A stretch of 15,650 nt of DNA from a virus (taxonomy: Duplodnaviria > Heunggongvirae > Uroviricota > Caudoviricetes), in the IMG/VR virus record IMGVR_UViG_2703718817_000011. The stretch is one strand, 5' to 3'. Positions 1 through 12,681 of this stretch are shown piece after piece. Below the pieces are notes generated by a model, which saw nothing but the letters and a program-made list of their open reading frames with translations, made no database searches and had not been told where the DNA came from. Positions within the stretch are counted from its first letter, which is position 1. Each line of letters begins with the position of its first letter. A program made the position numbers and the translations under genes.

Positions 1-165
1 ATGGCAAAGCCGATCATCACGCTCAATGGCCTAAAAATCGTCATTATGTTGGGAATGCTGGTCATTATTCTCTGCGGTATCCGTTTTGCCGCCGAGATCA
101 TCGTGCCGTTTATTCTCGCATTATTTATTGCTGTTATATATAACTTATCCCGCATAGTGCATTGA
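1..165 (+). pseudogene. tqsA: Truncated 5' fragment of AI-2 exporter gene tqsA (ydgG), interrupted by the inserted element
   Basis: ORF at nt 1 translates [46 protein letters not shown], which matches the TqsA N-terminus from memory; it then diverges (YNLSRIVH) and stops at 163-165 instead of continuing about 340 codons. Confidence 0.55.
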
Positions 166-210
166 TTTAATTAAGCAATTTTCACTGAGAAAGTGCCAAA
201 ATTCGCAAAA

Positions 211-234
211 TGACTACACCAGTGACTACACCGT
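211..234. repeat. Tandem direct repeat, 2 x TGACTACACC on a 12-bp period, about 70 bp inside the left junction
   Basis: tgactacaccag / tgactacaccgt at 211-222 and 223-234, read directly. Confidence 0.5.
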
Positions 235-620
235 TCGGTGCACTGTATGAAACAACGTGGAACAAATAGGCACAAGAAATATAAAGGCGGGTAATTTTAA
301 GGAGGCGTTGCTGTCGATATGGGGATCCCCATAACGGGGCTACCGGATTTTTTTTCCGGTTAACCTTTAATCAGCCAGGTGGGTTTTACATACCCTTGAT
401 CACCGTAATGATGATCCAGATGTGCACCTTTTCCACCAATGGCGGAAAAGCTCCAACCGTAACGATGATCGCTATGGTTGCCTCGATGGTCTGCGTGGTC
501 ATTATGACCATTCAGCCAGTGACCTTAATCAGAATTTTTCGCTAAAAAATGACGTTGGCCACGTCATCCGGAAAGCACAAAATCACGTCGATTTTTAATG
601 AACGGTTAAACCGTCTTTTT

Positions 621-660
621 GTCACGGTGTGTCACTGGTTGTCACTCTCCGTCACGATTG
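621..660. repeat. Four helically phased decamers each beginning GTCAC
   Basis: gtcacggtgt gtcactggtt gtcactctcc gtcacgattg with an exact 10-bp period, read directly. Confidence 0.55.
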
Positions 661-769
661 AGGTGGTGCTCATTCTGCCCGACCGCGCATTTTTGCGCTA
701 TCGGGAATATAAAACAGTTACCGCCGTCAGCTACCCAGCTCAGAATTGAGCCGCCTTTTAATCAACAAG

Positions 770-1051
770 TTACCGCCGTAACCGCTCCGGCTTCTTCCAG
801 TGATACGTGATTTTCTCCTTCTCCCGATACAGTTCAACGCGGCGATTGTAGGCCAGCATTTCCAGAACGCGGATCCGTATGTCGCGCATATCCGCATCAT
901 TAAGCTGGATACCATCACGGCGCATCACCTCAGCAACAACACGCGCATAATTTTCGGCTGTCACGCTGTCCGGCTGCGTGGTCTGTTCGTCAGCCTGCTG
1001 GCTGATTCCAGAGACGCGGCGGATTAATCGCAGTATTTCGGCTTCTGTCAT
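770..1051 (-). CDS. Hypothetical protein (93 aa), last gene of the packaging operon
   Basis: ATG at 1051 preceded by a GAGGT SD; starts 14 nt after the terL stop; no recognisable family. Confidence 0.5.
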   Translation of the reverse strand: MTEAEILRLIRRVSGISQQADEQTTQPDSVTAENYARVVAEVMRRDGIQLNDADMRDIRIRVLEMLAYNRRVELYREKEKITYHWKKPERLRR

Positions 1052-1064
1052 GCTGCTGACCTCA

Positions 1065-2726
1065 TTACACCCCGCTAAATTCTTCCAGTTTCTGGCGGTG
1101 GCTGTCGCTTATATCAAAAGCAAAATCCTCATGCTCTGCCTGGAATGTACCAAACGCCATCAGCGCCGCTACGCTCGGGTCTATCTTGTTCGGTGATTTT
1201 TTCTTGTTCGGCTTGATATTGGCGTTCGCGTCACTCTGCATCACGACGTTACTCATCGACCAGGACAACACCGGATCGCCACGATGCACAATCACCCTGC
1301 GGTTAACAAAAACTTCGAACGATTTCGCCGCCGGACTGAATCTGAGGTAGGTTTGCGGGAACGGCTCCACCTCAAAACCAGCCCCCTGTAATTGCGTCCT
1401 GAGATGCGTGGCGTTCCACGTATCAAAGCCCACCAGCCTGATATTAAATTTCTCCGCATCCTGCATGATGTCATCTCTGATCCGGTCGTAATCAATGCAG
1501 TCACCTGGCGTTGTGCGTATCCAGCCCGCTTTAGCCCACTGGCGATAGACAGCGCGGTTTTTATTGGCGGGGTTCTGTAGCTGGAACTCCGGCAGATAAT
1601 GACGGGAAACCAGCATGATATTTTTACCGACCGGAAAGGCATAGCACACGCTGGAAATATCGCTGGTTGATGATAAGTCCAGCCCCGCGTAACACTCCTG
1701 CCCGTGTAAATCTTCCTCCGTGAACGTTCCGGCACACTCAGCCCATGCGCCGTTACCCATCCACGGGGTAGCCCCCTGGCACCAGATATTAAATCGCTTT
1801 GTCATCATCTCCACCCATTGCGACGGAATACCCCGCGCTTTCTGGATGGTTGAGGCCAGTTTTTCACGATCCACGGAAACATCGATGTTAGGGTTAGCCT
1901 TTATCCACATCGCCGGATCATCAACCTCGTTTTCGTCGTCCAGCTCGTAAATCAGCACAAAAATTGAATCGTTGACCTCTTCGCCGTCCAGGATCTGGCA
2001 GCAATAATCATAGTGCTGTTTACAGGTTGAAACGACGTTACTGCCCGATGTGGTAATGGCAAATAACAGCCCTTCGGGACGTGCGCCCATCCCCAGCTCA
2101 AGCGCGGAATAAACGCCGTTATCGGGGTGTAGGTGGTATTCGTCCACGATGGAAAGGCTGGGGTTTGTTCCCTCGATGGTTGCCGCTTTTGCTGCCAGCG
2201 GCTTTAACAGGCTGTTGCTTTTCGGGTGCATCACCTTGTGGGCCTGAATATTCACCCGCCTGCGTAACGGTCGGGATAAAAGGCACATCTGACGCGCATC
2301 ATCAAAAACGATCCGCGCCTGGTCACGGCTCACCGCTGCGGTGTAAATATCCTGCTGCCCGTTCTCCATAATCAGAAACCAGTTAGCCAGAATCGCGGCG
2401 GTCGTGGATTTCGCATTTTTGCGCGGCACTTCGATAAAGGCGCTCGTGTATTTGCGCCGTCCGGTGGCCTTAACCTTAAAGCCGAGGATGCACGCAAAGG
2501 CGAACTGCTGCCACGGCTCCAGCTCAATGGGTCTGCCACGCATCGGCCCTTTTACGTGCGGGCACACCCTGGAAAAGGCAATAAACCGCTCCACAACCTC
2601 ACGATCGAACGTGTAAAGGGGGCTTTCAAGGTCCGAAAAGTACCGTTTAACGGCCTGTTTCAGCCGTTTACAGGCCGGAATTTTGCCCGTTTTTACGTCT
2701 TCTGCGTACTTATTCCAGGCGGTCAA
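1065..2726 (-). CDS. terL: Terminase large subunit (HK97-type)
   Basis: 553-aa ORF with an N-terminal ATPase Walker A-like segment (VPRKNAKSTTAA) and a C-terminal nuclease-like region; apparent TTG start at 2726 with an AGAGGA SD, overlapping the terS 3' end. Confidence 0.88.
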   Translation of the reverse strand: MTAWNKYAEDVKTGKIPACKRLKQAVKRYFSDLESPLYTFDREVVERFIAFSRVCPHVKGPMRGRPIELEPWQQFAFACILGFKVKATGRRKYTSAFIEVPRKNAKSTTAAILANWFLIMENGQQDIYTAAVSRDQARIVFDDARQMCLLSRPLRRRVNIQAHKVMHPKSNSLLKPLAAKAATIEGTNPSLSIVDEYHLHPDNGVYSALELGMGARPEGLLFAITTSGSNVVSTCKQHYDYCCQILDGEEVNDSIFVLIYELDDENEVDDPAMWIKANPNIDVSVDREKLASTIQKARGIPSQWVEMMTKRFNIWCQGATPWMGNGAWAECAGTFTEEDLHGQECYAGLDLSSTSDISSVCYAFPVGKNIMLVSRHYLPEFQLQNPANKNRAVYRQWAKAGWIRTTPGDCIDYDRIRDDIMQDAEKFNIRLVGFDTWNATHLRTQLQGAGFEVEPFPQTYLRFSPAAKSFEVFVNRRVIVHRGDPVLSWSMSNVVMQSDANANIKPNKKKSPNKIDPSVAALMAFGTFQAEHEDFAFDISDSHRQKLEEFSGV

Positions 2727-3066
2727 GCTCGTCCTCTTCTTCTGTTTCCGGTGGATTTTTACGGCGGCTTATCGGGTCAAAACCGAGCAAAGAGGCCATT
2801 TTTATCATCACTCTTTCAGCGTCGGATTTTGCGCTTAATGCGGGGTTTCTGCTCTCGCCGCCCTGACTGTTAACAATGCTGAACCCGCGCGCCGCAAGGT
2901 CTGCAACGGCTTTCCGGTAAATGGAGTAGTTGACACAATACAGTTCCAGATTGCTCCAGTCGGCGGGGGTCAGGTCTCCCCGTTCCGCAAGCTGCCTAGA
3001 TTTTTCCCGCCACTGCTTCACGGCGATATCATCCAGGTAGGCGGGGGCTTTCGGTGGTCTTGCCAT
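2710..3066 (-). CDS. terS: Terminase small subunit (P27 family-like)
   Basis: 118-aa ORF directly upstream of and overlapping terL; sequence resembles P27-family small terminase subunits (recollection). Confidence 0.75.
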   Translation of the reverse strand: MARPPKAPAYLDDIAVKQWREKSRQLAERGDLTPADWSNLELYCVNYSIYRKAVADLAARGFSIVNSQGGESRNPALSAKSDAERVMIKMASLLGFDPISRRKNPPETEEEDELDRLE

Positions 3067-3188
3067 GCTTATTTTTCGCCAGATTATTTTTCAAAAAATT
3101 CCCGTGCATAAAAATTTGAGGAGGCGTTCGGTGCCCGGCGGGGTCGGGTTGGTCCTGAAAACGCCCCCCACCCCGTCATACAGCCTCA

Positions 3189-3371
3189 TCAGCGATTGCG
3201 GAAACATTCCATAACCTCGCGGTCACGGTCGGTTAATCGCTTCGCTGTGATGCGTTCTGCGCGTCCTGACGCTTTATCTTTATGCCCTGTTTCCTGTGTC
3301 TTCCATGCGTCACGCTGCCTTATAAGTCCACGGATAAGGCGGTTTTGCTCCCGCTCATTCATCAGCGTCAT
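3189..3371 (-). CDS. Hypothetical small basic protein (about 60 aa) between HNH and terS
   Basis: Internal ATG at 3371 (or 3362) of track ORF 3189..3593, overlapping the HNH stop; highly charged sequence; weak SD. Confidence 0.3.
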   Translation of the reverse strand: MTLMNEREQNRLIRGLIRQRDAWKTQETGHKDKASGRAERITAKRLTDRDREVMECFRNR

Positions 3372-3795
3372 ACATCCAGTTATTGCGGTTAGCGGCCCGT
3401 TCTTCCTCTTCACGAAATCCACCTGCGGCACGCTTGCTTTTTGTTGCCGGATCAAGCCATTTCGTTTTCTGGTTATGACACGCCTGGCACAATGGTTGAT
3501 GGTTCCATTCGGGCCAGAAGAGAACATCATCACCGCCATTAATCGGGATAATGTGATCCACCACCACGGCGGGCGTATATATCCCCTTCTCAAGGCATCG
3601 CACGCATAACGGGTTTTTACTCAGATACATGGCGCGGTATTTGTCCCACTGTCTGGAATATCCACGCGCGCGGCGGTGTCCTCGTCTGGCATCCTCTGCA
3701 CGCCATGCCGCCCGCCTGTGCTCCTCACACTTGCCGGATTTAACGCGCCTGTTACAGCCTGGTTCTGTGCATCGTCTTAATGGTTGCCACGGCAT
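3355..3795 (-). CDS. HNH endonuclease (packaging-associated)
   Basis: 146 aa with paired Cys motifs and an HNH core (CxxC ... DHIIP ... N ... H ... CxxCH); located next to terS as in HK97-like cos phages; start overlaps the upstream stop. Confidence 0.85.
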   Translation of the reverse strand: MPWQPLRRCTEPGCNRRVKSGKCEEHRRAAWRAEDARRGHRRARGYSRQWDKYRAMYLSKNPLCVRCLEKGIYTPAVVVDHIIPINGGDDVLFWPEWNHQPLCQACHNQKTKWLDPATKSKRAAGGFREEEERAANRNNWMYDADE

Positions 3796-4091
3796 CAGTA
3801 CACCCCCACATCACGGTAAGCCGTCCAGAGTGCGCCTATCGTCATGGGTACGCGTGTTTTTGCGTTATCCGCGACAATCTGGCGATTTTCATACAGGTGA
3901 GCGATAAACATCATGCAGCCAATCTTTATGGCTGGCGTGAACTCCAGCCCGTCATCAAAGCGCCTGCCTATGTGTATCTGGCACGCCTCAAGCGATGCGG
4001 CAATGTATCCGCTGATTAACTGGTCTTCATCGTCGCCATCGATGCGGCAATGGAGTTTCACTTCTTCCAGGGTGATAAGTTCTTCTGTCAT
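3795..4091 (-). CDS. Head-tail connector protein (gp6-like DNA packaging protein)
   Basis: 98-aa ORF; N-terminal ITLEEVKLHCRIDGDDEDQLI pattern typical of gp6-like connectors (recollection); ATGA overlap with the upstream gene. Confidence 0.65.
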   Translation of the reverse strand: MTEELITLEEVKLHCRIDGDDEDQLISGYIAASLEACQIHIGRRFDDGLEFTPAIKIGCMMFIAHLYENRQIVADNAKTRVPMTIGALWTAYRDVGVY

Positions 4092-4426
4092 TTTTCCGCG
4101 CCCTCACGACAAAGAATTTCAAGGCGTGTCCTGGCGGCATCCGGCAGCGGCTGCCCGATGATATTCAGTACACGCCCCGCCAGCGGCCCCGTACTGACCT
4201 TTATCCGACTGGTGGCGTTGATGTCCTTCCGGTACCGTATCCAGATCCTTACGGTACCAATCGCCAGCTCTGCGCCCGATGAAATGGCCTCCTTGCTGCT
4301 GATCATGTTCACGCTTGCCCAGAGTGTGTGACCGTCCTCCCACGTTTCGAGTATTTCGCCCGTCATGGCTCTGGTCTGTTTCAGGGTCTGAATCGTTATC
4401 CTGTCACGCAGTCGCCCTATGTTCAT
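4088..4426 (-). CDS. Head closure / head-tail joining protein
   Basis: Start taken at the internal ATG 4426, which forms an ATGA overlap with the portal stop; begins MNIGRLRDRITIQ, a hallmark of the phage head-tail joining family. Confidence 0.65.
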   Translation of the reverse strand: MNIGRLRDRITIQTLKQTRAMTGEILETWEDGHTLWASVNMISSKEAISSGAELAIGTVRIWIRYRKDINATSRIKVSTGPLAGRVLNIIGQPLPDAARTRLEILCREGAEK

Positions 4427-5634
4427 TCCGGTTTTTCTCCCTCGCTGATTTTTACTTCCTGTTTCCATGCCTGGCTGAACTCATCACCACCATCACGCGG
4501 TGACAGTCCTTCACGTTCGCGGGCTTCGTTCGGACACATAACGCCGGATTTGATGCCGCGCTCATAGGTGGCAAAGCGTTCGCCAGGTGTGGCCCGTAAC
4601 AGGTCCGCGCTGTCAAACTCCACCTGATACCGGATACCAGGTACAGGCGAGGCCACCAGCAGGGCGTTTTTTATCTGCTGCTCAAAGTTCGCCAGCCACG
4701 GGCGCATCGTCATGGTGAGAAATGCGCGGCTTGCCTCGCTGAAATTGCTGTAGGTGCTGTTGCTGTATTCCTGCAAAAAAATCGGCGAGACGTTGAACAT
4801 TCGGGCGATGTCTTCAATGGTGAAGCGACGGGAGGCCAGCCATTCAGCATCCTGATTACTCATGCCCAGCTGCTGATAGCTCATACCCCCTTCAAGGATG
4901 GGCGTTTTTCCGGCGTTTCTGGCCCCTTTGTAGCGTTCCAGTGCGGCTAATGCCTGTTTGCCCTTCACGCCGTCCAGCCATTCGCCTGACGTGATAACCC
5001 CTGCCGCCATCATGCCATCACGCATCACGCTCGCGCCGTGGCGTTGTTGGGCCAGCCCAAGCCCCAGCGATTCGCGGCAGATGGTTACAGGTGAGCGCCC
5101 CATAAAGCCGTCATCCGTGGAGTAACGAAGGTGAAGTACTTCCCACGGTAAATAGTTGCGGGTGTTTCCGGTGTAGGCGTCAGTGATGCAGTAGCGCCAG
5201 TTGTGTTCGCCTGTCTGCTCCACGTTCACCGACTGCGGCGGGTAAGGATGTAAAGCCGCCGGAAAACCATCACGCCCCCACTGAATCACCGCATAAGCAT
5301 TACCGTTTAACAGGCAGTGGCGGATCATCATTCGCTTAAACTGGTAGGGGGTTTGCCATGCGTTCGGGCGCTCGTTGAGGATGTGATCGACCGGATGAGA
5401 ATCAAGCCACTCGCGGGCCTCCTTCCCCTTCTCATTGCGTACCAGGTACAGGTAACACGGCATGGTAGCCACCGCCTCAGAGATGACCGTGACGGCGTTC
5501 ATGACGGCGGGCAGTGATTCCGCTGTCCCCGATGATACGTACTCACCCGCCCCCGTGTTCGATGTGCCAGCCAGCGCCATAAATTCATCAAGCGTCATGC
5601 TGCGCTGCTCTTTTTTTCTTCTGAAAGGCCACAT
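4423..5634 (-). CDS. Portal protein (HK97 family)
   Basis: 403-aa ORF with portal-family features; GGGGGTG SD upstream of ATG 5634; starts immediately after the protease stop. Confidence 0.88.
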   Translation of the reverse strand: MWPFRRKKEQRSMTLDEFMALAGTSNTGAGEYVSSGTAESLPAVMNAVTVISEAVATMPCYLYLVRNEKGKEAREWLDSHPVDHILNERPNAWQTPYQFKRMMIRHCLLNGNAYAVIQWGRDGFPAALHPYPPQSVNVEQTGEHNWRYCITDAYTGNTRNYLPWEVLHLRYSTDDGFMGRSPVTICRESLGLGLAQQRHGASVMRDGMMAAGVITSGEWLDGVKGKQALAALERYKGARNAGKTPILEGGMSYQQLGMSNQDAEWLASRRFTIEDIARMFNVSPIFLQEYSNSTYSNFSEASRAFLTMTMRPWLANFEQQIKNALLVASPVPGIRYQVEFDSADLLRATPGERFATYERGIKSGVMCPNEAREREGLSPRDGGDEFSQAWKQEVKISEGEKPE

Positions 5635-5635
5635 A

Positions 5636-6208
5636 TCACACCCCCGCTAAATCCACCCACCAGCGGCGATTATCCGCACGCGGCATTTTTTCGGGGTGCT
5701 GCTCATACAGGGAACGGCGGGCCAGCTCCACGCCGGAATCAGGGTAAGCCGGAACGGATGTAACGGTAATTTCGTACAGTTCCGCCACCAGCACGGTGCG
5801 CACGCATGGATCTGTTGTGGTATCCCATACATCCTTACGGGAACGAAAGCCAAAGCTCATGCCGGATATATCACCACGTTTAACCAGTTCGATAACGTCG
5901 CGCCCTGTGCTGGTATCCGGTGGGGTCAGTTCAAAGCGTAACCCTGTTTCGTCCTCTTCCAGTTTCAGCGTGCCGGAACGGGTACGCCCCAGTAACATGC
6001 TGTGGTCATGCTCATACAGGCCGCGAACGTCATTACCCGCTGCAAGCCATTCAGTAAACGCTCCCCGCTGGAATTTTTCGTAAAACTCACCCCATAACAG
6101 TTCTGAAAGCTTATCCCAGCGAACAACGTAGCCCGTCAGCGTACCGGCTCCGCTGGTGGTGATTTCCGATGACCGGATTTCCATACTCTTCATAATTTTT
6201 TCACCCAT
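5636..6208 (-). CDS. Prohead maturation protease (HK97 family, S78)
   Basis: 190 aa with YEHDHSMLLGRT and ISGMSFGF motifs typical of HK97 prohead proteases; alternative starts at 6193 or 6184. Confidence 0.82.
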   Translation of the reverse strand: MGEKIMKSMEIRSSEITTSGAGTLTGYVVRWDKLSELLWGEFYEKFQRGAFTEWLAAGNDVRGLYEHDHSMLLGRTRSGTLKLEEDETGLRFELTPPDTSTGRDVIELVKRGDISGMSFGFRSRKDVWDTTTDPCVRTVLVAELYEITVTSVPAYPDSGVELARRSLYEQHPEKMPRADNRRWWVDLAGV

Positions 6209-6237
6209 AAAACACTAAAGGGGCTTTTAAGCCCCTT
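6204..6237 (-). terminator. Intrinsic terminator-like hairpin after the capsid gene (minus strand)
   Basis: AAGGGGC / GCCCCTT stem at 6218-6237 followed on the minus strand by a U-rich run (UAGUGUUUUAUG). Confidence 0.4.
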
Positions 6238-6247
6238 CTGTATGCTG

Positions 6248-7405
6248 TTAATCGTCGTCCTGTGGCAGTTCCAGAATCTTGATCGCGTTCGAATCCACCA
6301 CGCCACCGCCTAAATATTTCTGCGTGAAAATTTTGATGAAGCCCGGCTCTGTGAGGTTGTCCGGTCTGGTGCGAACACCTGTTTCGTGATCAACAATGTA
6401 GTAACCGCGTTTGAAGTCACCCAGGGCAATAACGTTATCAGGCATAAACTCCAGATATTCGACCGGAAGGCCCAGCAACGTATCAGGATCACCCGCCTGT
6501 AAACGGTCGCGCCAGATGTAATCACCGTTCGCGTTCTTCACCTTCTGAAGTTTTGCCGCCGTCGTGGAGTTAACCACCCAGACCGCGTTTTTGCGGTATT
6601 TTTTACGTAATGCAAATTTCAGGTCGATCAACGGGTCCGCAGATGTCCACGCCAGAGATTCGGAAGGTTTAATTACCTGCAACGTACCAAAATCACGCTC
6701 TTTGTCGTTCTTCTCTGCACGGGGTACGGATAAAAAACCTTTTGCTTTTTTGTCACCGTCGCCCACAACCAGATCGCTTTCTTCGGTTTCCGTGAAGGTG
6801 TCGCCAATCTCACCCGTCAGCCATGAAAGGATGTCCACATCGGAAAAATCCACGATTTCCTGTGTGGTGCGCGGGTACGCATAGACCGGATACAGCTTAA
6901 TGCTCACCTCGTTAATCTGCGGGGTGCTGGTCTGTTCGCGTGTCTTACCCTCTTCACCGTGGTTAACGGTCGCACCGCCAGCGGAAACAAGCTGCTTAAA
7001 CTCGTTGCTGCTGATTTTCTTCACGGTACAGATGCGGCGCATGGTGGACTCATCCGCCAGCATTCGCATGATTTCGGTGTTCAGCTCGGGGATAACGGTA
7101 TAACCACCATCAGCGGGAACGCCTGTACTTAATGCGCGGGTTTCACCCGTCAGAATGTAGTTTCGTAGTTCTGCGGGGTCAGTGGTCTGACTGCTTTTAC
7201 CTGGCTTGCTGCGCTCTTCGTCTGCAATGGCTTCAAGGCGGGAAATGTCTTTATCGAGGGATTCAGCTTTAGCGCGTAATTCGTCAAATTTTGCGCCCTC
7301 AGCATCGTTAAGACTGCGGTTTTCTTTTTCCGCGTTCTCCAGCATGTCACGCATCTGATTTTTAATGGCGGTTTTCTGCTGGCGTAATTCGATTATTCTC
7401 TGCAT
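6248..7405 (-). CDS. Major capsid protein (HK97 fold) with N-terminal coiled-coil delta/scaffold domain
   Basis: ATG at 7405 (the track ORF extends to a TTG at 7450); N-terminal coiled coil about 70 aa long followed by a capsid-family body (GGYTVIPELNTEI...). Confidence 0.88.
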   Translation of the reverse strand: MQRIIELRQQKTAIKNQMRDMLENAEKENRSLNDAEGAKFDELRAKAESLDKDISRLEAIADEERSKPGKSSQTTDPAELRNYILTGETRALSTGVPADGGYTVIPELNTEIMRMLADESTMRRICTVKKISSNEFKQLVSAGGATVNHGEEGKTREQTSTPQINEVSIKLYPVYAYPRTTQEIVDFSDVDILSWLTGEIGDTFTETEESDLVVGDGDKKAKGFLSVPRAEKNDKERDFGTLQVIKPSESLAWTSADPLIDLKFALRKKYRKNAVWVVNSTTAAKLQKVKNANGDYIWRDRLQAGDPDTLLGLPVEYLEFMPDNVIALGDFKRGYYIVDHETGVRTRPDNLTEPGFIKIFTQKYLGGGVVDSNAIKILELPQDDD

Positions 7406-7443
7406 AAAAAAAAGTCCTGGGGTTAAGTAAGGAACTCCAGGAC
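7406..7443 (-). promoter_or_regulatory. Leader hairpin plus U8 tract abutting the capsid start codon (attenuator or SD-sequestering structure)
   Basis: Minus strand reads GUCCUGGAG-loop-CCCCAGGAC then UUUUUUUU then AUG; the only SD-like AGGA lies inside the 3' arm of the stem. Confidence 0.45.
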
Positions 7444-7620
7444 GCGGCAAACACTCAACCGTTTTTCATAAGGAAATCAGCAATCGCACCGATCGTTTTC
7501 CCGCCTGGTAATGAATATTGGCGGGCACATTAACAGGCGGGAAAGTGGCCCCAGCGTCCTGGCACCACGGGCGAGAATAATCATGATTCAGTTCGGGTAA
7601 AATATGCCGATCCGCTCAGT

Positions 7621-7650
7621 GAACAACGTGGAACAACCACGAACAAATAA
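7621..7650 (-). repeat. Three helically phased TTGTTC repeats upstream of the packaging operon
   Basis: Plus strand gaacaacgtg gaacaaccac gaacaaataa; minus strand reads TTGTTC at a 10-bp period; related to the repeats at 251-270 and 14341-14390. Confidence 0.5.
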
Positions 7651-7653
7651 TTT

Positions 7654-7686
7654 ACAAAAAATAACAAAAAGCCGGATTGCTCCGGC
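7654..7686 (-). terminator. Intrinsic terminator after the perC-like gene
   Basis: GCCGGA-ttgc-TCCGGC stem at 7671-7686 followed on the minus strand by UUUUUGUUAUUUUUUG. Confidence 0.55.
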
Positions 7687-7692
7687 TGTTGA

Positions 7693-7965
7693 TTAGCTGT
7701 CTGTGTAATTACGCCATATTTCATCGCTTACACCATCCATACCCATTTCAGCATAAGTGCGATCGACTGCCTTTCTCAGGTCTCCGAAGTTATCCGGCGG
7801 CTCCGGTGGCCTCTGTGCCTTCCTGGAACATTCCAGCCGTCGCATCGTAACCTGATGCCGTTCCTTGTCTGTCTCCACCAGTTGCATGACTTCACCCCAT
7901 CGCGCCGCCGCCCTCCGGTAAAAGCCTTTTGCCTCGAGTTCCTCCGCTATGCGGTCATGTGCCAT
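7693..7965 (-). CDS. PerC-family transcriptional regulator homologue
   Basis: Start at ATG 7965 with a GAGGGGG SD; contains the YRRAAARW motif characteristic of PerC/Pch proteins (recollection). Confidence 0.65.
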   Translation of the reverse strand: MAHDRIAEELEAKGFYRRAAARWGEVMQLVETDKERHQVTMRRLECSRKAQRPPEPPDNFGDLRKAVDRTYAEMGMDGVSDEIWRNYTDS

Positions 7966-7975
7966 CGTCACCCCC

Positions 7976-8386
7976 TCAGAACGGAATATCATCACCGTAA
8001 GGGTCATCGCCTCCCGCTGGTGGCTGATTACCCTGTGTGCCTGTGGCTTTGCGTCTGTTCCCGCCAGGACGTGCCGCGCGGGCACTGATTACGCTGTCCG
8101 CAATAACCTGATACCCCTGCCGTGTTTCCCCGTTCTGTCCGGTCCACTGGCTTACCTGCATCGTGCCGGATACGCTGGCAACATCGCCTTTTTGATGTTT
8201 AGCCAGGAAATCGGCCTGTTTGCCAAATGCGATAACCGATAACCATAACGTCGCCTGTCCGTCATGTGCCTGGCTGCATGGCAACGATACCGCCATACGC
8301 GCCAGAGTCATCGGTGTGCCCTTGCTGCTCTGTTTTACCAGCGGGTCGTCCACCAGCCGCCCGTAAGCTGCAATTTGTGCTGTCAT
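7976..8386 (-). CDS. ssb: Single-stranded DNA-binding protein
   Basis: 136 aa with an OB-fold-like N-terminal region, a Gly/Pro-rich linker and the C-terminal acidic tail DDIPF; GAGGTGG SD. Confidence 0.85.
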   Translation of the reverse strand: MTAQIAAYGRLVDDPLVKQSSKGTPMTLARMAVSLPCSQAHDGQATLWLSVIAFGKQADFLAKHQKGDVASVSGTMQVSQWTGQNGETRQGYQVIADSVISARAARPGGNRRKATGTQGNQPPAGGDDPYGDDIPF

Positions 8387-8395
8387 ATTGCCACC

Positions 8396-8701
8396 TCAGT
8401 GAAGCGATCCGGCGTTGTTCTTTTTCATCTCTTCCATCATTTTTTCAGTGAGCATTACGCACTGAAAACCCATGCTTTTGATGTCTACGGGTTTCATGCC
8501 TTTGTCTGTGGATATCACAGGCAGAATATCCTGATACACATCGCGGTCAGGGTAACTAAGCACACAAAGCGCCCATGATGCCACGGGTGAGGATCCTTCG
8601 TCTGTTTCAACCCACCAGCCTGGTGTAGCTGCGCTTATTTGCAGAATCGTGATCCGTCCGTTGTGCTTGTAAAATTTTTCACCAAATTTTGGTTCGCTCA
8701 T
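8396..8701 (-). CDS. Hypothetical protein (101 aa)
   Basis: ORF with an ATGA overlap to the upstream gene; 10-nt gap to ssb; no recognisable family. Confidence 0.5.
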   Translation of the reverse strand: MSEPKFGEKFYKHNGRITILQISAATPGWWVETDEGSSPVASWALCVLSYPDRDVYQDILPVISTDKGMKPVDIKSMGFQCVMLTEKMMEEMKKNNAGSLH

Positions 8702-8949
8702 GATTCCACCTCTCCGGTTTTAACGTTGATTGTTGTTACCTGTTCCGCTTCGGCAATCTCCCGTTCTGTCAGCGTGGCAAAGTTTGCCGCCGCTGTGGTC
8801 ATGAATGCGCTTATCAGTTCGGGATGCTCCTTCGCGTATCCTTCCCCCGCGTGGCGGTCTATCGTTCTGATTGCCACCTTTAAAGCGTGCTCTGTCATGT
8901 CTAACGCTTTATATTTTGGCTGTGTTCTGTCTCTGCGTTTTTGTGTCAT
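8698..8949 (-). CDS. Hypothetical protein (83 aa)
   Basis: Start taken at the internal ATG 8949 (GGTGGGGAG SD); the upstream part of track ORF 8698..9144 overlaps the iteron region and is probably non-coding. Confidence 0.4.
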   Translation of the reverse strand: MTQKRRDRTQPKYKALDMTEHALKVAIRTIDRHAGEGYAKEHPELISAFMTTAAANFATLTEREIAEAEQVTTINVKTGEVES

Positions 8950-8950
8950 C

Positions 8951-9155
8951 TCCCCACCTATACCCACTTTTACTCCCCACTTTTCACAATTCCCCATCTC
9001 GTTAAAGGCGTGGGATTTGTAATTTTTATCATGCTGTTTCATAAGGATTTTTTTGCTCCCCACTTTTTGGGATGTATACAGGTCAAAAAGTGGGGGATTG
9101 TGTTTAAATTTTGTTAAATTCCCCATACCCACCACTTTTGCCACCCACTTTTTAC
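8951..9155. repeat. Putative replication origin: CCCCACTTTT-type iterons flanking an AT-rich segment
   Basis: At least six copies of CCACTTTT in both orientations (about 8965, 8977, 9060, 9084 inverted, 9133, 9146) around an AT-rich stretch at 9011-9056, immediately 3' of the replication gene. Confidence 0.5.
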
Positions 9156-10561
9156 AGTGGCCCTACATCATCGCCGTCAACATAGATAACGCCGTCTTTT
9201 TCCAGCTTGCCCAGCCAGCGCCGGAAGTGCTTTATTTCGTACCCCAGTTTTTTCATGTCATCACGTAACAGCGGGATCGTGCACTTGTCGCCGTTCTGTG
9301 TGCGTGAACGGATACACCCCCATAGCGCGGTATGGTTTTCCGTCTTGTTGCCTGCCTCTTCGATGCGCTCCAGTTCAACGGGAGGGCGCGGCTTATCCAC
9401 CACCACCAGCGACGTGATTAACTCCCCGTCAGCGTCGGTAAAAAGCTCCACCACCCGCAAATCATAGGCAGCCTCTTTGAGTTCCTCCGCGTCCTTCATT
9501 TTGGTGCATGAGATAACCAGCGCTTCGCTTCCTGCGTCCTCCCTGCGTATCCGGTATTCAGCATCCAGTGATGCACGAAATGCACTGGAACCGCGCGCGC
9601 CTTTCGTCTCATCCTTGCCGGAATGGTGAACCACCAGCACCGTGGCCCCTGTGCGTCGTTTCAGTTCGTCACACCCACGGATAAACGCCCCCATGTCGCG
9701 GGAGTCATTTTCATCATTGCCGCCAAAGCAGCGCGCCAGCGTGTCCAGAATAATCATGCGAACAGGTTTACCCGTTTCCCTCTCCACCTGACTGGCAGCA
9801 ATAACCAGTTCATCAACATCAAGCGGGACAGCCGGAAAGATGGGACGGTTTACCAGATACAGATTTTTCACCTGCTCACCGTGCACAACCTCCCAGGCTT
9901 TTACACGACGCGGAACGCCGATACCGCCTTCACCAACCACATAGAGAACAGCGCCATGCGCCACCCTGCGGCCTCCCCACTGGCGGCCCGTGGAAACGTG
10001 ACACGCCCACGATCCGGCAAGGAATGATTTATAGGAACCGCTCGCCCCGTATATGCTGCAAAGCGACGATGCCGGAATAATCCCCTTTACCACGTAATCA
10101 AGTTGTGTGTCGTATCCGGTAGATCCAACGCTCATCGGTAGCGTGGTTTTTCGCTGGGGGATTTTTTTCATGACCAGGCTTTCCCCGCGTTCCCATGCCT
10201 CCCTAAGCCGTGGAAGCTGGTCGCTCCATTCCTCCAGCAATTCGAAATTTTCAGAAAGTAGCCGCGCCTCCTGGACTCCGGCGATCGCCAGTTTCGTGGC
10301 GATGGTTAACAGCTGCGGCTCTTCAATATTTCCGGCGCGTATCACCGTCGCCCTGTATCGCCCATCATCAACAATCTGGAGGTTATCCAGTTCGCTTAAC
10401 TGATAACGCCCCAGATAAACGGGAGGGACTGGATCGCCTGCTTTTTTGGCCTGTGCAATGATGTAATGCTCTGCGAATGAGTGAGCATCAATACCCGCAA
10501 AAATAATCGCATCGGTGTATTTGTCTTTCGGTAATAGTTTTACGTTCGGTGCCAGTTTCAT
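9152..10561 (-). CDS. Replication initiator/helicase-type ATPase (AAA_25/RepA-like), candidate PICI Pri-Rep
   Basis: 469 aa with Walker A GASGSYKS, Walker B-like MIILDTL and an HHSGK motif typical of AAA_25 RecA-like replication proteins; N-terminal domain about 150 aa of unknown type. Confidence 0.7.
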   Translation of the reverse strand: MKLAPNVKLLPKDKYTDAIIFAGIDAHSFAEHYIIAQAKKAGDPVPPVYLGRYQLSELDNLQIVDDGRYRATVIRAGNIEEPQLLTIATKLAIAGVQEARLLSENFELLEEWSDQLPRLREAWERGESLVMKKIPQRKTTLPMSVGSTGYDTQLDYVVKGIIPASSLCSIYGASGSYKSFLAGSWACHVSTGRQWGGRRVAHGAVLYVVGEGGIGVPRRVKAWEVVHGEQVKNLYLVNRPIFPAVPLDVDELVIAASQVERETGKPVRMIILDTLARCFGGNDENDSRDMGAFIRGCDELKRRTGATVLVVHHSGKDETKGARGSSAFRASLDAEYRIRREDAGSEALVISCTKMKDAEELKEAAYDLRVVELFTDADGELITSLVVVDKPRPPVELERIEEAGNKTENHTALWGCIRSRTQNGDKCTIPLLRDDMKKLGYEIKHFRRWLGKLEKDGVIYVDGDDVGPL

Positions 10562-10857
10562 TTTTTACCCCTGAATCCGTTAATCATGGTTTTCAGCTTC
10601 TGGATGTTTGCCCGTGCCCTGACGTTGCTGGTGGGCACGTTATGCGGCGCGGTCTGTACCAGAGAAAAATCACGCCGGAACTGATAAACAGGCATCACGC
10701 AATCATATTCGTAACCTTCACGGCGGTAAGTTACGCACCGTCCCGCCACGCCCTTAATCATTACCGTGCCGCCGTACTGGTCGCGGTAAATATCACCGCG
10801 CGTAAATTTAGGGTGAGTGTTGCCACTGGCAGTTAAGCCAGAATATTTAAGTTTCAT
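10558..10857 (-). CDS. Hypothetical protein (99 aa)
   Basis: ATG 10857 with a GGAGAA SD; ATGA overlap with the rep start. Confidence 0.5.
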   Translation of the reverse strand: MKLKYSGLTASGNTHPKFTRGDIYRDQYGGTVMIKGVAGRCVTYRREGYEYDCVMPVYQFRRDFSLVQTAPHNVPTSNVRARANIQKLKTMINGFRGKK

Positions 10858-10862
10858 TATTT

Positions 10863-11096
10863 TTATTCTCCGGTGTGCTGTTCGTTATATCTGTCGTGCA
10901 ATGTCTCTATTTCCTGCAACTCATTTATTACAGGCTCAAGAAGCGTTATTAATGCCGTGACAATTCTTGATTTTTGTTTGTCGCGTTCATTGTCGCCAAG
11001 TGTTTCAAGCCATATGCGCAATATTTCCAGCATGTTTTCACTGTGAGAAAGTGCAAGAAATACGCGTTCTGTTGTTTCGTGGTAAATATCACGCAT
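10863..11096 (-). CDS. Hypothetical protein (77 aa)
   Basis: ORF overlapping the upstream gene by 8 nt. Confidence 0.45.
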   Translation of the reverse strand: MRDIYHETTERVFLALSHSENMLEILRIWLETLGDNERDKQKSRIVTALITLLEPVINELQEIETLHDRYNEQHTGE

Positions 11097-11322
11097 GGCT
11101 TACATCCTCAGGAAATTTTCTTCTGTAACGCGCCTCTGCCACATATTCCGCATAATCGGCGGCGATATTCAGTACATCAAGTCCCGTTGATTTATATTCT
11201 TTCGTGGAAAGTAAGAAAAAAGCCGCTCTAATAAGTTCTGGCATTGACGAAAGCGCATCAGCCGCATCATCAGATACGCCGGAAAATTCTTGTTTCAGGG
11301 AATAAAAACGATCATCACGCAT
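11089..11322 (-). CDS. Hypothetical protein (77 aa), possibly the C-terminal part of a gene split at a G9 tract
   Basis: ATG 11322 lies 2 nt after a 9-G homopolymer (minus strand); no properly spaced SD. Confidence 0.4.
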   Translation of the reverse strand: MRDDRFYSLKQEFSGVSDDAADALSSMPELIRAAFFLLSTKEYKSTGLDVLNIAADYAEYVAEARYRRKFPEDVSHA

Positions 11323-11555
11323 AACCCCCCCCCATTTTCACAATCAGCAATCAGGATAGCTTTGGCCTCATTCAGCGCCATATCAGCACTAAGTTGCATA
11401 ACCGCCAGCGAATGAGGAACGAAAGCCCCGGCATATTCTGTTTCGCTGGTGGCGTGCTTATGTGCCCTGTCCGCGATAACAGAAATATCAATCAGCGCGT
11501 GCATCAGCGTTTTGATGGCTTCGGCGGCTGCGTCCGGTGTGGTTTTATTGTGCAT
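11295..11555 (-). CDS. Hypothetical protein (86 aa), possibly the N-terminal part of a gene split at a G9 tract
   Basis: ORF ends in a hydrophobic tail (LCVMIVFIP) right after the homopolymer; a +1 G would fuse it in frame to 11089..11322. Confidence 0.4.
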   Translation of the reverse strand: MHNKTTPDAAAEAIKTLMHALIDISVIADRAHKHATSETEYAGAFVPHSLAVMQLSADMALNEAKAILIADCENGGGLCVMIVFIP

Positions 11556-11757
11556 AAAGCATCCCCTGAATATTCGTGTTAATCATTCCGGCACGTTTTG
11601 TGATTTCCTGTAATGATTCCCTTGTGGCGACAATTGCTTCATCTGGTAAGTGGTAATTACACACCACGCGACCTTTATCCACATTGACCAGTAGCTGCCC
11701 TGTGAATTTCTCACGAAACTGAATGCGGTTAAGGTCAGTAAGTGACAGATTAATCAT
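11545..11757 (-). CDS. Hypothetical protein (70 aa)
   Basis: ATG 11757 preceded by a strong AGGAGGTG SD and overlapping the upstream stop. Confidence 0.5.
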   Translation of the reverse strand: MINLSLTDLNRIQFREKFTGQLLVNVDKGRVVCNYHLPDEAIVATRESLQEITKRAGMINTNIQGMLYAQ

Positions 11758-12307
11758 GGCGCACCTCCTGACGAATACGGGCGGCAAATACAGCAACACA
11801 ACCGGACGGGCAACGGTTACGCGCTTCGCGTTCCGTCCAGGCGGTTACGTGGATGATTTGATGGTCTGACGCGCCAAAGGCAATAAAGCGCCAGATAAAG
11901 GCTGTTTGAGAATGTACGAGGGCAGGGGTAGTAGCCATGTTGGCAGCCTCCTCAGTGTGGTTAAGATAACCGCCACGCAAAAGGCTAATTTCGCTGGTGG
12001 CGGACTGTACAGGGTTAGCCTTACCGGACACTGAAGAAACCGGCGCGGATTGCTCCGCCCCCGTACAGCCCACCATTGATAAGGTGTGACTATGCGGCAC
12101 AAAAAAACACGCGGGACGCGTGCTGTGCGCTTCAGTTGTTTTCAGGAGGCTAATCCCGACACCCGTTTTATGAGGTGCGCGGGAATCATAGCTATTTTCG
12201 ACACTGGCGATCAACTGGTTTTTTTCTCCGATATTCAGGGCCAGAAAACGCCACACAAAGGCAGTTTGTGTGTGTACAAGGTGTGGTATATGATTTACAG
12301 CAACCAT
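11750..12307 (-). CDS. Icd-like (P4 host cell division inhibitor-like) protein with tandem duplicated domain and internal start
   Basis: ATG 12307 with an AGGAG SD; two copies of an LVH(T/S)QTAF(V/I)WRF segment; second in-frame ATG at 11938 has its own GAGGAGG SD; Icd-like call from recollection of P4-like island proteins. Confidence 0.5.
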   Translation of the reverse strand: MVAVNHIPHLVHTQTAFVWRFLALNIGEKNQLIASVENSYDSRAPHKTGVGISLLKTTEAHSTRPACFFVPHSHTLSMVGCTGAEQSAPVSSVSGKANPVQSATSEISLLRGGYLNHTEEAANMATTPALVHSQTAFIWRFIAFGASDHQIIHVTAWTEREARNRCPSGCVAVFAARIRQEVRHD

Positions 12308-12398
12308 AACGGCTCCTAGTTTACGTTGTTGGTTAGAAGCCCTGCGAGTGGTAACGACACTTGCGGGGCTTTGTCTTTTCATCGATTACCTTGATAAA

Positions 12399-12487
12399 GG
12401 TGTCAGCCACTATATTAGTAACGGGTGTCAGCCACGTCAATAGTGTTTTTCCGTTTTCTTGTGTGTATACTGTCAGCCACCTAATAA
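12399..12487. promoter_or_regulatory. Divergent promoter/operator region with three direct repeats of GGTGTCAGCCAC
   Basis: Repeats at 12399-12410, 12424-12435 and 12470-12480; minus-strand TTGACG-17nt-TAATAT (12435-12440 and 12412-12417) with a repeat in the spacer; plus-strand TATACT (12466-12471) or TTGTGT-17nt-TAATAA. Confidence 0.45.
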
Positions 12488-12501
12488 CGAGGAAATCAGA
12501 T

Positions 12502-12681
12502 ATGGCAACAAAAGCAGTTAATGCAAAATCCAAAAAGCTTGAGGCTCGAGTACCACACGCAATAGCTGATGCTGTAGAAAATTTAAAGGAAGATGGCGAA
12601 AGTACAGGGCAATTTATCGTTTCGGCACTTGAAGGCGAGATCAAACGCCGCCAGCGCCGCAAGGCCAAAGAATCAGAATAA
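12502..12681 (+). CDS. Ribbon-helix-helix (CopG/Arc-like) DNA-binding protein, 59 aa
   Basis: ATG 12502 with a GGAA SD; predicted beta-strand/helix/helix layout (KLEARVPHAIADAVENLKEDGESTGQFIVSALEGEIKRR); divergent from the replication operon. Confidence 0.55.
   Translation: MATKAVNAKSKKLEARVPHAIADAVENLKEDGESTGQFIVSALEGEIKRRQRRKAKESE

What the first reader, a model, noticed from the sequence alone, without database searches (positions are those of the whole stretch)
3112..3160. Candidate cos site upstream of terS, with a partial paralogue near the left end
The 122-bp non-coding gap in the canonical position for cos in HNH-terminase phages contains a GC-rich block GGTGCCCGGCGGGGTCGGGTTGGTCC resembling cohesive-end sequences of lambda- and HK97-like phages. 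The adjacent AAATTTGAGGAGGCGTT is repeated as AATTTTAAGGAGGCGTT at 293-309, followed there by a 14-bp perfect palindrome ATGGGGATCCCCAT (319-332).
Basis: inference. Interest (0 to 1): 0.45.

Follow-up and report, generated by a model that had tools for sequence, protein, structure and literature searches.

The report
Packaging (cos) site of a phage satellite

Summary
The window is a complete capsid-forming PICI (cf-PICI) inserted in tqsA, with all its genes on the minus strand: int, replication genes, capsid, protease, portal, connectors, HNH, [122-bp gap], terS, terL.

The gap is conserved as DNA across about 20 genera of Enterobacterales plus Aeromonas. It has three parts:
- a G-run block (3177-3149);
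- a 13-nt spacer of variable sequence but fixed length (3148-3136);
- a highly conserved core (3135-3084).

The core aligns significantly, across the cut, with the experimentally mapped cos of Burkholderia phage phiE125, whose TerS, TerL and HNH are homologous to the window's. A profile of the cf-PICI gaps also matches the HK97 and D3 end junctions collinearly.

By transfer from those phages, the predicted nicks are 3121|3120 on the minus strand and 3130|3131 on the plus strand. That leaves a 10-nt 3' overhang, 5'-CGAACGCCTC-3'.

A lysate-derived assembly of the Klebsiella cf-PICI (vB_KppS-Ant) breaks exactly here and lacks 69 bp around this position.

The left-end 17-mer is within chance. It is degraded in an island with the same cos, and it sits in an att-proximal module shared with satellites that carry another packaging system.

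Overall this is an ordinary, useful annotation, not a new kind of element.

The parts
3355..3795 (-). HNH endonuclease gene, the partner of the terminase for cos cleavage
   Evidence: Pfam HNH, E=1.8e-8. PHROG 144. 40% identical to phiE125 HNH, E=4e-21.
3189..3362 (-). Small conserved ORF (57 aa from the ATG at 3362) overlapping the end of HNH and ending directly upstream of the cos region; function unknown
   Evidence: Translation. Full-length match to phrog_3173, E=6e-37. Annotated as a hypothetical protein in RefSeq copies. Its C-terminus is conserved across genera.
3149..3177 (-). Upstream conserved block of cos: GACGGGGTGGGGGGCGTTTTCAGGACCAA. Its G-run (3174-3165) lies -54 to -45 from the predicted cut. 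Proposed upstream cos subsite, analogous in position to lambda cosQ; this role is inferred.
   Evidence: Near-invariant in 167 distinct sequences and in 30 loci found through the protein alone. A G-run sits at about the same distance from the mapped ends of phiE125, D3 and HK97.
3136..3148 (-).
   Evidence: Under 1 bit of information in 12 of its 13 columns (1.01 bit at 3138), with no indels in the 30 unbiased loci and at most one gapped sequence per column among the 167.
3131..3135 (-). GGCAC, the start of the conserved core. The predicted bottom-strand (plus-strand) nick lies between 3130 and 3131.
   Evidence: ACC at 3132-3130 is invariant. It aligns to GGGAC|C of phiE125 and TGAC|C of HK97 immediately before their 10-nt overhangs.
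3121..3130 (-). Predicted 10-nt 3' cohesive end: minus strand 5'-CGAACGCCTC-3', plus strand 5'-GAGGCGTTCG-3'. Predicted top-strand nick between 3121 and 3120.
   Evidence: Homology transfer from the phiE125 cos (right extension 5'-CGCCCGCTTC-3'; PMC2920897) and from the HK97 cut (PMC11331095), using the alignments. Consistent with the 69 bp missing from the lysate-derived Ant assembly.
3084..3120 (-). Conserved core downstream of the cut: CTCAAATTTTTATGCACGGGAATTTTTTGAAAAATAA. Proposed TerS recognition and bending site (cosB-like): ACGCACGG-type element plus T/A tracts at +12 to +37.
   Evidence: The most conserved stretch of the gap. In HK97 the TerS site is +15 to +29 and needs an A-tract (PMC11331095). 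The assignment here is by position only.
3067..3083 (-). Variable leader with the terS ribosome-binding site
   Evidence: Low conservation except a GG at 3080-3079.
2710..3066 (-). terS, small terminase of the P27 family
   Evidence: Pfam Terminase_4, E=1.3e-23. TIGR01558 above its cut-off. Homologous to phiE125 gp1, E=5e-13.
1065..2726 (-). terL, large terminase (ATPase plus nuclease)
   Evidence: Pfam TerL_ATPase and TerL_nuclease. 31% identical over 544 aa to phiE125 TerL, E=4e-84.
293..333 (.). NOT part of cos: the left-end 17-mer (293-309) and the 16-bp palindrome (318-333), inside a conserved att-proximal non-coding module
   Evidence: see the full report.

Best explanation
The window is a capsid-forming phage-inducible chromosomal island (cf-PICI). 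The 122-bp gap between its HNH gene and terS is its cos site, of the HNH-dependent, 3'-overhang type known from phiE125 and HK97.

Proposed mechanism:
1. After induction and replication, the island's own TerS (P27 family) recognises the conserved, A/T-tract-containing core just downstream of the cut (about 3109-3084).
2. TerS positions TerL, which together with the HNH protein makes two nicks 10 nt apart: minus strand 3121|3120 and plus strand 3130|3131.
3. This leaves 10-nt 3' cohesive ends, 5'-CGAACGCCTC-3'.
4. DNA is then packaged starting with terS-terL, across the joined att site, through int, the replication genes and the capsid genes to HNH. Packaging ends at the next cos in the concatemer.
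5. A G-run block about 50 bp upstream of the cut, held at a fixed distance by a spacer of free sequence, is part of the site. It may act at termination or in HNH/TerL docking.

Shown here: gene identities; DNA conservation; significant homology to a mapped cos; the break in a lysate-derived assembly at this spot.

Inferred: the exact nick positions (+-2 nt); the 10-nt overhang; the TerS-site assignment; the role of the G-run.

The left-end 17-mer and palindrome have nothing to do with cos.
For: (1) Context. The order capsid-protease-portal-connectors-HNH-gap-terS-terL, with int, a RepA-like helicase and SSB and no tail genes, matches proteobacterial cf-PICIs (bioRxiv 10.1101/2022.09.08.507074).

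(2) cf-PICIs have cohesive ends. He et al. report them for KpCIDSM30104 (10.1101/2025.02.11.637232).

(3) Conservation. In 30 loci from about 20 genera found through the TerS protein alone, the gap keeps two near-invariant blocks separated by a spacer without indels. A profile of those loci, built without the window, hits the window only at 3179-3084(-), with 77 bits and E=9e-24.

(4) Homology to a mapped cos. phiE125 has homologous TerS (E=5e-13), TerL (E=4e-84) and HNH (E=4e-21). Its end junction aligns across the cut with the cf-PICI core. Pairwise scores were reached by at most 2 of 1000 shuffles in 8 of 9 loci. The profile scores 25.0 bits with 0 of 1000 shuffles reaching it. The phiE125 ends are 10-nt 3' extensions, CGCCCGCTTC (PMC2920897).

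(5) Other junctions. The same profile matches the HK97 junction (9.8 bits, 0/1000) and the D3 junction (7.6 bits, 1/1000), collinearly from the G-run to the cut. The phiE125 and HK97 ends fall on the same profile column and the D3 record end within 2 nt of it (HK97 cut from PMC11331095).

(6) Physical evidence. vB_KppS-Ant is a Nextera/SPAdes assembly of lysate DNA (PMC8006926). It is 100% identical to the integrated K. pneumoniae ATCC 13883 island on both sides, but its two ends flank this gap and 69 bp are missing. The predicted cut lies 31 and 38 nt from the two contig ends.

(7) No competing signal. There is no Rfam family, no terminator, no minus-strand promoter match, and no unusual RNA folding in the gap.
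Against: - No ends were mapped for this element or any cf-PICI at nucleotide resolution. Nick positions rest on alignment to phages whose proteins are only 29-40% identical.
- Pairwise HK97-versus-gap alignment alone is not significant, and HK97 TerS is not detectably homologous to this TerS. The TerS-site assignment is therefore by analogy of position.
- The window's own overhang sequence (CGAACGCCTC) departs from the family consensus (CGCCCGCCCC) at three positions (3128, 3127 and 3122).
- The Ant contig break could in principle be an assembly artefact. The paper does not say how the ends were set.
- The conserved blocks could additionally serve in transcription.
Confidence: 0.8

Rival explanations
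1. The gap is cos, but the staggered cut and cohesive end lie inside the GC-rich block (variable spacer, about 3136-3155). The sequence there would be free to vary because the nuclease cuts at a measured distance from flanking recognition blocks.
For: The spacer is GC-rich and of strictly fixed length but free sequence, which a cut-at-a-distance mechanism could produce. The 3' part of the spacer lies within the 69 bp missing from the Ant assembly.
Against: In all three phages with defined ends, the spacer-equivalent lies upstream of the cut. The mapped overhangs of phiE125 and HK97 align to 3121-3130. The Ant contig reaches to 3152, immediately next to the spacer. A tagmentation library is not expected to cover DNA that close to a physical end (my inference about Nextera chemistry).
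Confidence: 0.1
2. The conserved gap is primarily a transcriptional or translational control region for terS-terL (promoter, antiterminator or leader), and the packaging site lies elsewhere.
For: It is a conserved non-coding block inside an operon directly upstream of terS. One weak sigma-70-like match exists, on the plus strand only.
Against: There is no minus-strand promoter or terminator match, no Rfam hit, and RNA folding no better than shuffles. The conserved core is homologous to a mapped cos across the cut. The lysate-derived assembly breaks here.
Confidence: 0.05
3. The left-end 17-mer (293-309), with the nearby 10-mer CGTTCGGTGC (233-242), is a functional second or pseudo-cos, for example for termination or for packaging of flanking DNA.
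For: A 15-of-17 match with 0.04 expected for that specific 17-mer. A second exact 10-mer from the cos core lies about 50 nt away (seen).
Against: The best gap-versus-window match is typical of shuffles, 52 of 60. The two pieces are in the wrong order. The cos profile gives no hit there at E<=1000. There is no G-run, no ACC and no ACGCACGG/T-tract around it. L001 has a 99.7% identical cos region but reads AATTCATGAGGGGCGTT, with 24 extra nt. The module is shared with PICIs that carry a different capsid/terS set.
Confidence: 0.03

Closest known systems
cos site of Burkholderia phages phiE125 / phi644-2 / phi1026b
   Same: It lies between an HNH gene and a P27-family terS. TerS, TerL and HNH are homologous to the window's. 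The DNA core ACCGCCCGC...|.TC.AATTTT.ACGC aligns significantly across the cut. There is a G-run about 50 bp upstream.
   Different: The proteins are only 29-40% identical. The overhang sequence differs (CGCCCGCTTC versus CGAACGCCTC). The downstream A/T tracts differ. phiE125 is a full temperate siphovirus, not a satellite. Its ends are mapped (PMC2920897); these are not.
HK97 cos (cut site, 10-nt 3' overhang, TerS site at +15 to +29; gp74 HNH)
   Same: The same layout: G-run, ACC, 10-nt overhang, cut, ACGC..., T-tract, terS. A collinear profile match of 9.8 bits is reached by 0 of 1000 shuffles. TerL has the same Pfam domains and there is an HNH partner. HK97-like phages (HK106, HK446) are helpers of the prototype cf-PICI.
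   Different: HK97 TerS has no detectable sequence similarity to this TerS. Pairwise DNA similarity alone is not significant. The proposed TerS-site sequences differ, which would fit the reported mutually exclusive packaging of phage and satellite.
cf-PICIs EcCIEDL933 and KpCIDSM30104
   Same: The same gene set and order. The KpCIDSM30104-type island (L088/Ant) carries the same conserved gap. Cohesive ends are reported for it.
   Different: This island sits in tqsA and has its own sequence variant of the core (GAACGCCTC, ATGCACGGGAA). I found no nucleotide-level description of the cos site in the cf-PICI papers I could read.
Lambda cos (cosQ-cosN-cosB)
   Same: A tripartite logic: an upstream element, the nick site, and a downstream small-terminase site next to the small-terminase gene.
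   Different: From textbook knowledge, lambda has a 12-nt 5' overhang, Nu1/gpA terminase, R sites and IHF. Here the TerS is P27-type with an HNH partner and a predicted 3' overhang, with no sequence relation tested or seen.
cos SaPIs (SaPIbov5) and P4
   Same: Satellites packaged by a cos mechanism.
   Different: They copy the helper's cos and use the helper's terminase. This island brings its own terminase, HNH and cos.

Membership tests
cos site of HNH-dependent (HK97/phiE125-type) terminases | Lies in the non-coding interval between the hnh gene and terS | tested here: met
   The gap 3067-3188 is flanked by HNH plus a small ORF on one side and terS on the other.
cos site of HNH-dependent (HK97/phiE125-type) terminases | Cognate TerS, TerL (ATPase plus nuclease) and HNH are encoded next to it and are homologous to those of phages with mapped cos | tested here: met
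   Against phiE125: TerS E=5e-13, TerL E=4e-84, HNH E=4e-21. HK97 TerL and HNH share the Pfam families, but HK97 TerS does not.
cos site of HNH-dependent (HK97/phiE125-type) terminases | DNA sequence homologous to an experimentally mapped cos, spanning the cut | tested here: met
   phiE125 junction: 25 bits against the cf-PICI profile, 0 of 1000 shuffles reaching it. Pairwise scores reached by at most 2 of 1000 shuffles in 8 of 9 loci. HK97 0/1000 and D3 1/1000.
cos site of HNH-dependent (HK97/phiE125-type) terminases | Physical ends of packaged DNA map to the site | tested here: inconclusive
   The lysate-derived Ant assembly ends on both sides of the gap, with 69 bp missing relative to the identical integrated copy. 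This is not this island and not nucleotide-resolved, and the way the ends were set is not stated.
cos site of HNH-dependent (HK97/phiE125-type) terminases | Fixed single-stranded 3' cohesive ends of about 10 nt | not testable with these tools
   Predicted as 3121-3130 by homology only. Cohesive ends are reported for a related cf-PICI without sequence.
capsid-forming PICI (cf-PICI, proteobacterial group) | Integrase plus replication module plus own capsid, protease, portal and connectors, followed by hnh-terS-terL, in about 15 kb | tested here: met
   Pfam and annotation results. The order is as described. The island spans about 140 to 15650.
capsid-forming PICI (cf-PICI, proteobacterial group) | No tail genes; depends on helper-phage tails | tested here: inconclusive
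   No tail family was found among the ORFs scanned, but several ORFs have no family. Helper dependence is not testable here.
Lambda-type cos | Nu1/gpA-type terminase with cosB R sites and a 5' overhang | tested here: not met
   TerS is Terminase_4/P27. An HNH partner is present. The homologous mapped sites have 3' overhangs.
pac site (headful packaging) | Imprecise series cuts and terminally redundant, permuted DNA; the pac site usually lies inside terS | not testable with these tools
   Indirectly disfavoured by the HNH plus HK97/phiE125-type TerL, by the cohesive ends reported for the family, and by a single assembly break in Ant.

The most novel reading that the evidence does not exclude
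The G-run block about 45-54 bp upstream of the cut, kept at a fixed distance by a spacer whose sequence is free, may be a functional cos subsite that none of the papers I read describes. It would be common to HNH-dependent terminases from cf-PICIs, HK97, D3 and phiE125, for example as the docking site for the HNH protein or as the termination signal. Differences confined to the downstream TerS site would then explain why helper phage and satellite package independently despite a shared cut geometry.
Probability: 0.3. Interest if true: 0.45.

Novelty: new member of a known kind. Interest (0 to 1): 0.3.

Why it matters
It gives a nucleotide-level, testable prediction for the packaging site of a widespread satellite family. 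About 500 of 5426 complete E. coli genomes carry this gap, and it occurs in many other Enterobacterales.

A defined 100-bp cos would be useful in three ways:
- It would allow engineering of cf-PICI-based transducing particles.
- It would help annotate cf-PICIs and their ends.
- It could explain how satellite and HK97-like helper keep their packaging separate.

It also corrects two tempting misreadings: GC-rich does not mean cohesive end, and a short repeat does not mean a second cos.

Tried and rejected
- Pairwise HK97-versus-gap alignment looked convincing by eye but was not better than shuffles. I kept only the profile result.
- HK97 TerS as a homologue of this TerS: rejected.
- PDB sequence search with TerS: no hit.
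- Contig ends in IMG/VR as evidence for termini: uninformative. Most records are prophage cut-outs, and every hit had to contain a search pattern that itself straddles the predicted cut.
- Acinetobacter phage AbIPP1 as an end-defined relative: its record was re-oriented to start at the terS ATG.
- MF417951, a virome clone close to Ant, is not held.
- The Kropinski D3 paper is not held. The D3 overhang length is therefore from my memory only.
- Rfam, terminator and promoter scans and RNA folding of the gap were all negative.
- By eye, dyad symmetry or hairpins in the variable spacer do not keep a consistent register between loci. No formal covariation test was run.
- I did not use the metagenome scan, because contig ends cannot be selected for.

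Full report
WHAT THE WINDOW IS

All substantial genes lie on the minus strand. Read in the direction of transcription, from right to left, they are:
- tyrosine integrase, 14433-15650
- Ash-family protein, DUF4222 protein, RepA-like AAA_25 helicase (9152-10561) and SSB
- major capsid protein, 6248-7450
- prohead protease, 5636-6208
- portal, 4423-5634
- head completion and connector proteins
- HNH endonuclease, 3355-3795
- a small ORF ending at 3189
- a 122-bp gap
- P27-family terS, 2710-3066
- terL, 1065-2726
- a 93-aa ORF
- about 600 bp of non-coding DNA
.

Bases 1-137 are the 5' end of tqsA, which is intact in most E. coli genomes. The element is therefore an island inserted in tqsA.

The gene set, the order capsid-protease-portal-connectors then hnh-terS-terL, the size of about 15.5 kb, and the absence of any tail family among the ORFs scanned are those of proteobacterial capsid-forming PICIs, as described for EcCIEDL933 (bioRxiv 10.1101/2022.09.08.507074). 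The HNH-terS region occurs in 500 of 5426 complete E. coli genomes. A RefSeq copy is annotated the same way.

CHECK OF THE OBSERVATION

Every quoted string is at the stated coordinates, and the gap is 3067-3188, 122 bp. The palindrome is in fact 16 bp, at 318-333.

G+C richness alone is not special. The window is 50.7% G+C, and 26-nt stretches with at least 81% G+C occur at about a dozen places.

ANATOMY OF THE GAP

I collected 33 loci from one genome per species through the TerS protein alone: Klebsiella, Citrobacter, Enterobacter, Serratia, Rahnella, Erwinia, Pantoea, Xenorhabdus, Pectobacterium, Aeromonas and others. Although TerS is only 68-84% identical in those 30 loci, the DNA upstream of terS aligns almost without gaps in 30 of them.

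On the minus strand of the window the gap has these parts:
- Block 1, GACGGGGTGGGGGGCGTTTTCAGGACCAA (3177-3149). The G-run at 3174-3165 is nearly invariant.
- A 13-nt spacer (3148-3136). Its sequence is essentially free but its length is constant (no indels in the 30 unbiased loci).
- Block 2 (3135-3084), GGGCACCGAACGCCTCCTCAAATTTTTATGCACGGGAATTTTTTGAAAAATAA. Here ACC, CCTCAAATTTTTA, GCACGG and the T-run are nearly invariant.
- A variable leader carrying the terS ribosome-binding site.

A further 120 IMG/VR stretches gave the same picture over 167 distinct sequences. Those were selected with a pattern inside block 2, so I rely on the unbiased set for conservation.

EVIDENCE THAT THIS IS COS, AND WHERE THE CUT IS

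(a) Published statements. cf-PICIs are reported to package with their own HNH, TerS and TerL. For KpCIDSM30104 the packaged DNA re-anneals through cohesive ends.

(b) A GenBank record from packaged DNA.
- vB_KppS-Ant is 16,548 bp. It came from lysate DNA on K. pneumoniae DSM 30104, prepared with a Nextera XT library and assembled with SPAdes. No re-orientation is mentioned (PMC8006926).
- It is a cf-PICI whose linear record ends at ...GGGGTGGGGGAGGTTTTCAGGAC, the end of block 1, and starts 22 nt before the terS ATG.
- The integrated copy in K. pneumoniae ATCC 13883 is 100% identical over 1409 and 1876 bp on the two sides, but carries 69 additional bp between them. From my own knowledge, ATCC 13883 is the same type strain as DSM 30104.
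- A tagmentation library cannot cover the last tens of bases of a linear molecule (my inference from the chemistry). The simplest reading is that the physical ends lie inside those 69 bp, equivalent to window 3151 to about 3083.

(c) Homology to mapped cos sites.
- Burkholderia phage phiE125 has a P27-family TerS homologous to the window's (E=5e-13), a homologous TerL (31% identity over 544 aa, E=4e-84) and a homologous HNH (40% identity, E=4e-21).
- Its cos is mapped: ten-base 3' extensions, right end 5'-CGCCCGCTTC-3' (PMC2920897). These are the last ten bases of the record.
- Joining its two ends gives ...GGGGAGGGGGGAGAAAAAGTCTGGAAGGTGCTGCCTTCGGGACCGCCCGCTTC|GTCGAATTTTCACGCCCGCGAAATT.... This aligns across the cut with cf-PICI block 2. 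The family consensus is GGCACCGCCCGCCCC|CTCAAATTTTTACGCACGG.
- Local alignment scores were reached by at most 2 of 1000 dinucleotide shuffles in 8 of 9 cf-PICI loci, including the window (28 against a null of 16.8 +- 2.5).
- A profile HMM of the 30 unbiased gaps, built without the window, scores the phiE125 junction at 25.0 bits (null maximum 6.7), the HK97 junction at 9.8 bits (0/1000) and the D3 junction at 7.6 bits (1/1000).
- Each of these is a single collinear alignment that starts in the G-run. Those for phiE125 and HK97 run on past the cut; the D3 alignment stops 1 nt short of the record end.
- The HK97 cut is between the last and first bases of its record. I checked this against the published T16, G:C21 and A-tract 24-29 of the TerS site (PMC11331095; sequence).
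- The phiE125 and HK97 ends fall on the same profile column, and the D3 record end within 2 nt of it. All three phages have a G-run that starts about 53-55 nt upstream of the cut.

Transferred to the window, this gives:
- a nick in the minus strand between 3121 and 3120;
- a nick in the plus strand between 3130 and 3131;
- a 10-nt 3' overhang, 5'-CGAACGCCTC-3' (minus strand, 3130 to 3121).

In the Klebsiella element the same position lies 31 and 38 nt from the two Ant contig ends. That is consistent with (b).

The profile hits the window only once with any strength: 3179-3084, minus strand, 77 bits, E=9e-24.

MECHANISM

By analogy with HK97, the small terminase binds +15 to +29 downstream of the cut. 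It needs an A-tract and arrests the motor so that TerL, helped by the HNH protein, cuts (PMC9410871 and PMC11331095). On that basis I assign the conserved ACGCACGG-plus-T/A-tract segment (about 3109-3084) as the TerS site.

This assignment is by position only. HK97 TerS is not detectably related to this TerS.

The G-run block at a fixed distance is conserved in all four systems, and the HK97 and Burkholderia papers I read do not mention it. A role in termination or in HNH/TerL docking is a guess.

Packaging should start at 3120 and proceed through terS and terL, over the recombined att site, to finish at 3121 of the next copy.

RIVALS FOR THE GAP

- There is no Rfam family at E<=1.
- There is no terminator-like site, and the only promoter-like match is a weak one on the plus strand.
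- RNA folding of either strand is no better than shuffles (z=+0.6 and +0.1).
- A cut inside the variable spacer cannot be excluded outright. It conflicts with the alignment to mapped ends and with how close the Ant contig comes to the spacer.

THE LEFT-END 'PARALOGUE'

- For the pre-chosen 17-mer a second hit with up to 3 mismatches is rare (0.04 expected). The 17-mer was chosen after the fact. Comparing the whole gap with the rest of the window on both strands, the observed best ungapped score (11) is reached in 52 of 60 shuffles.
- The cos profile finds nothing there, even at E<=1000.
- Window 160-515 is a conserved att-proximal module found in three other islands. One is a cf-PICI at the phoQ/roxA site whose cos region is 99.7% identical over 601 bp (L001). 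Two are PICIs with a different capsid, decoration protein and terS (L122, L123).
- In all three the 17-mer reads AATTCATGAGGGGCGTT and is preceded by 24 nt that the window lacks. The palindrome, the adjacent ACCGGAT(7-8)CCGGT hairpin (altered at a few positions in L123) and the repeated TGACTACACC (211-220, 223-232) are conserved.
- The match is therefore specific to this copy, and the module is not tied to this packaging system.
- A second exact 10-mer shared with the cos core (CGTTCGGTGC, 233-242 versus 3125-3134) is in the wrong order relative to the 17-mer. It depends on a window-specific variant of the cos core, so I also regard it as coincidence.
- The two hairpins fold better than shuffles on the minus strand (z=-3.6). 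They may mark the 3' end of the packaging operon transcript or be protein-binding sites. I did not resolve this.

COMPARISON AND NOVELTY

- The site works like, and by sequence belongs with, the cos sites of HNH-dependent terminases (phiE125, D3, HK97). It is unrelated to lambda cos except in general logic.
- The element is a member of a described satellite family.
- In the papers I could search, I found no nucleotide-level description of a cf-PICI cos site.
- The prediction is therefore a modest addition, not a surprise.

SCORES

- Interest: 0.3.
- Confidence that cos lies in the gap: about 0.9.
- Confidence that the nicks are within +-2 nt of the stated positions: about 0.6.
- Confidence that the left-end copy is non-functional for packaging: about 0.95.

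Noticed in passing
window 386-511 (minus strand): An unannotated 41-aa, strongly hydrophobic ORF (MVIMTTQTIEATIAIIVTVGAFPPLVEKVHIWIIITVIKGM) in the conserved att-proximal non-coding region. The DNA is identical in L001 and partly conserved in L122 and L123. It might be a small membrane peptide or toxin. No PHROG or NCBIfam hit.
   Followed up: partly
window 160-515 and 770-1051; L122, L123: The left-end module (93-aa ORF of phrog_1561 plus non-coding DNA down to att) is shared at about 80% identity with PICIs at the phoQ site that carry a different major capsid, a head-decoration protein and an unrelated terS. This suggests modular exchange between satellite families.
   Followed up: partly
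window 318-333, 13143-13158, 14400-14415; also 133-144: There are three perfect 16-bp palindromes, against about 0.24 expected from length/4^8. Two lie in the regulatory/integrase end of the island. A 12-bp palindrome, GTTATATATAAC, sits exactly at the tqsA/island junction and could be the att core.
   Followed up: no
window 211-220 and 223-232: A tandem TGACTACACC repeat next to the att junction, almost invariant in four islands (the first T of the second copy varies). Plausibly integrase arm-type binding sites.
   Followed up: no
window 3189-3362 (minus strand): A small conserved ORF (phrog_3173, unknown function) that overlaps the HNH stop and ends directly upstream of cos in many genera. 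Its conserved C-terminus is ...RE(V/L)MECFRNR. It is a candidate packaging accessory protein.
   Followed up: partly
L087 (Shigella flexneri SFBU1023), equivalent to window 3047-3136: This copy has a 90-bp deletion between two CCCCGCC microhomologies. It removes the whole predicted cos core and the first 7 codons of terS, so the island is presumably immobilised.
   Followed up: yes
window 10788-10828 (minus strand, inside the DUF4222 gene): A weak second match to the cos profile (9.7 bits, E=0.008), carried by TTTACGCGCGGTGAT. This resembles the family consensus of the proposed TerS site more than the window's own cos does. Probably chance.
   Followed up: no
L002 (LR881103.1, vB_KppS-Ant): The record is deposited as an 'Escherichia phage' and is described in its paper as a filamentous ssDNA prophage. 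It is in fact the cf-PICI of K. pneumoniae ATCC 13883 packaged in particles, 100% identical to the integrated copy.
   Followed up: yes
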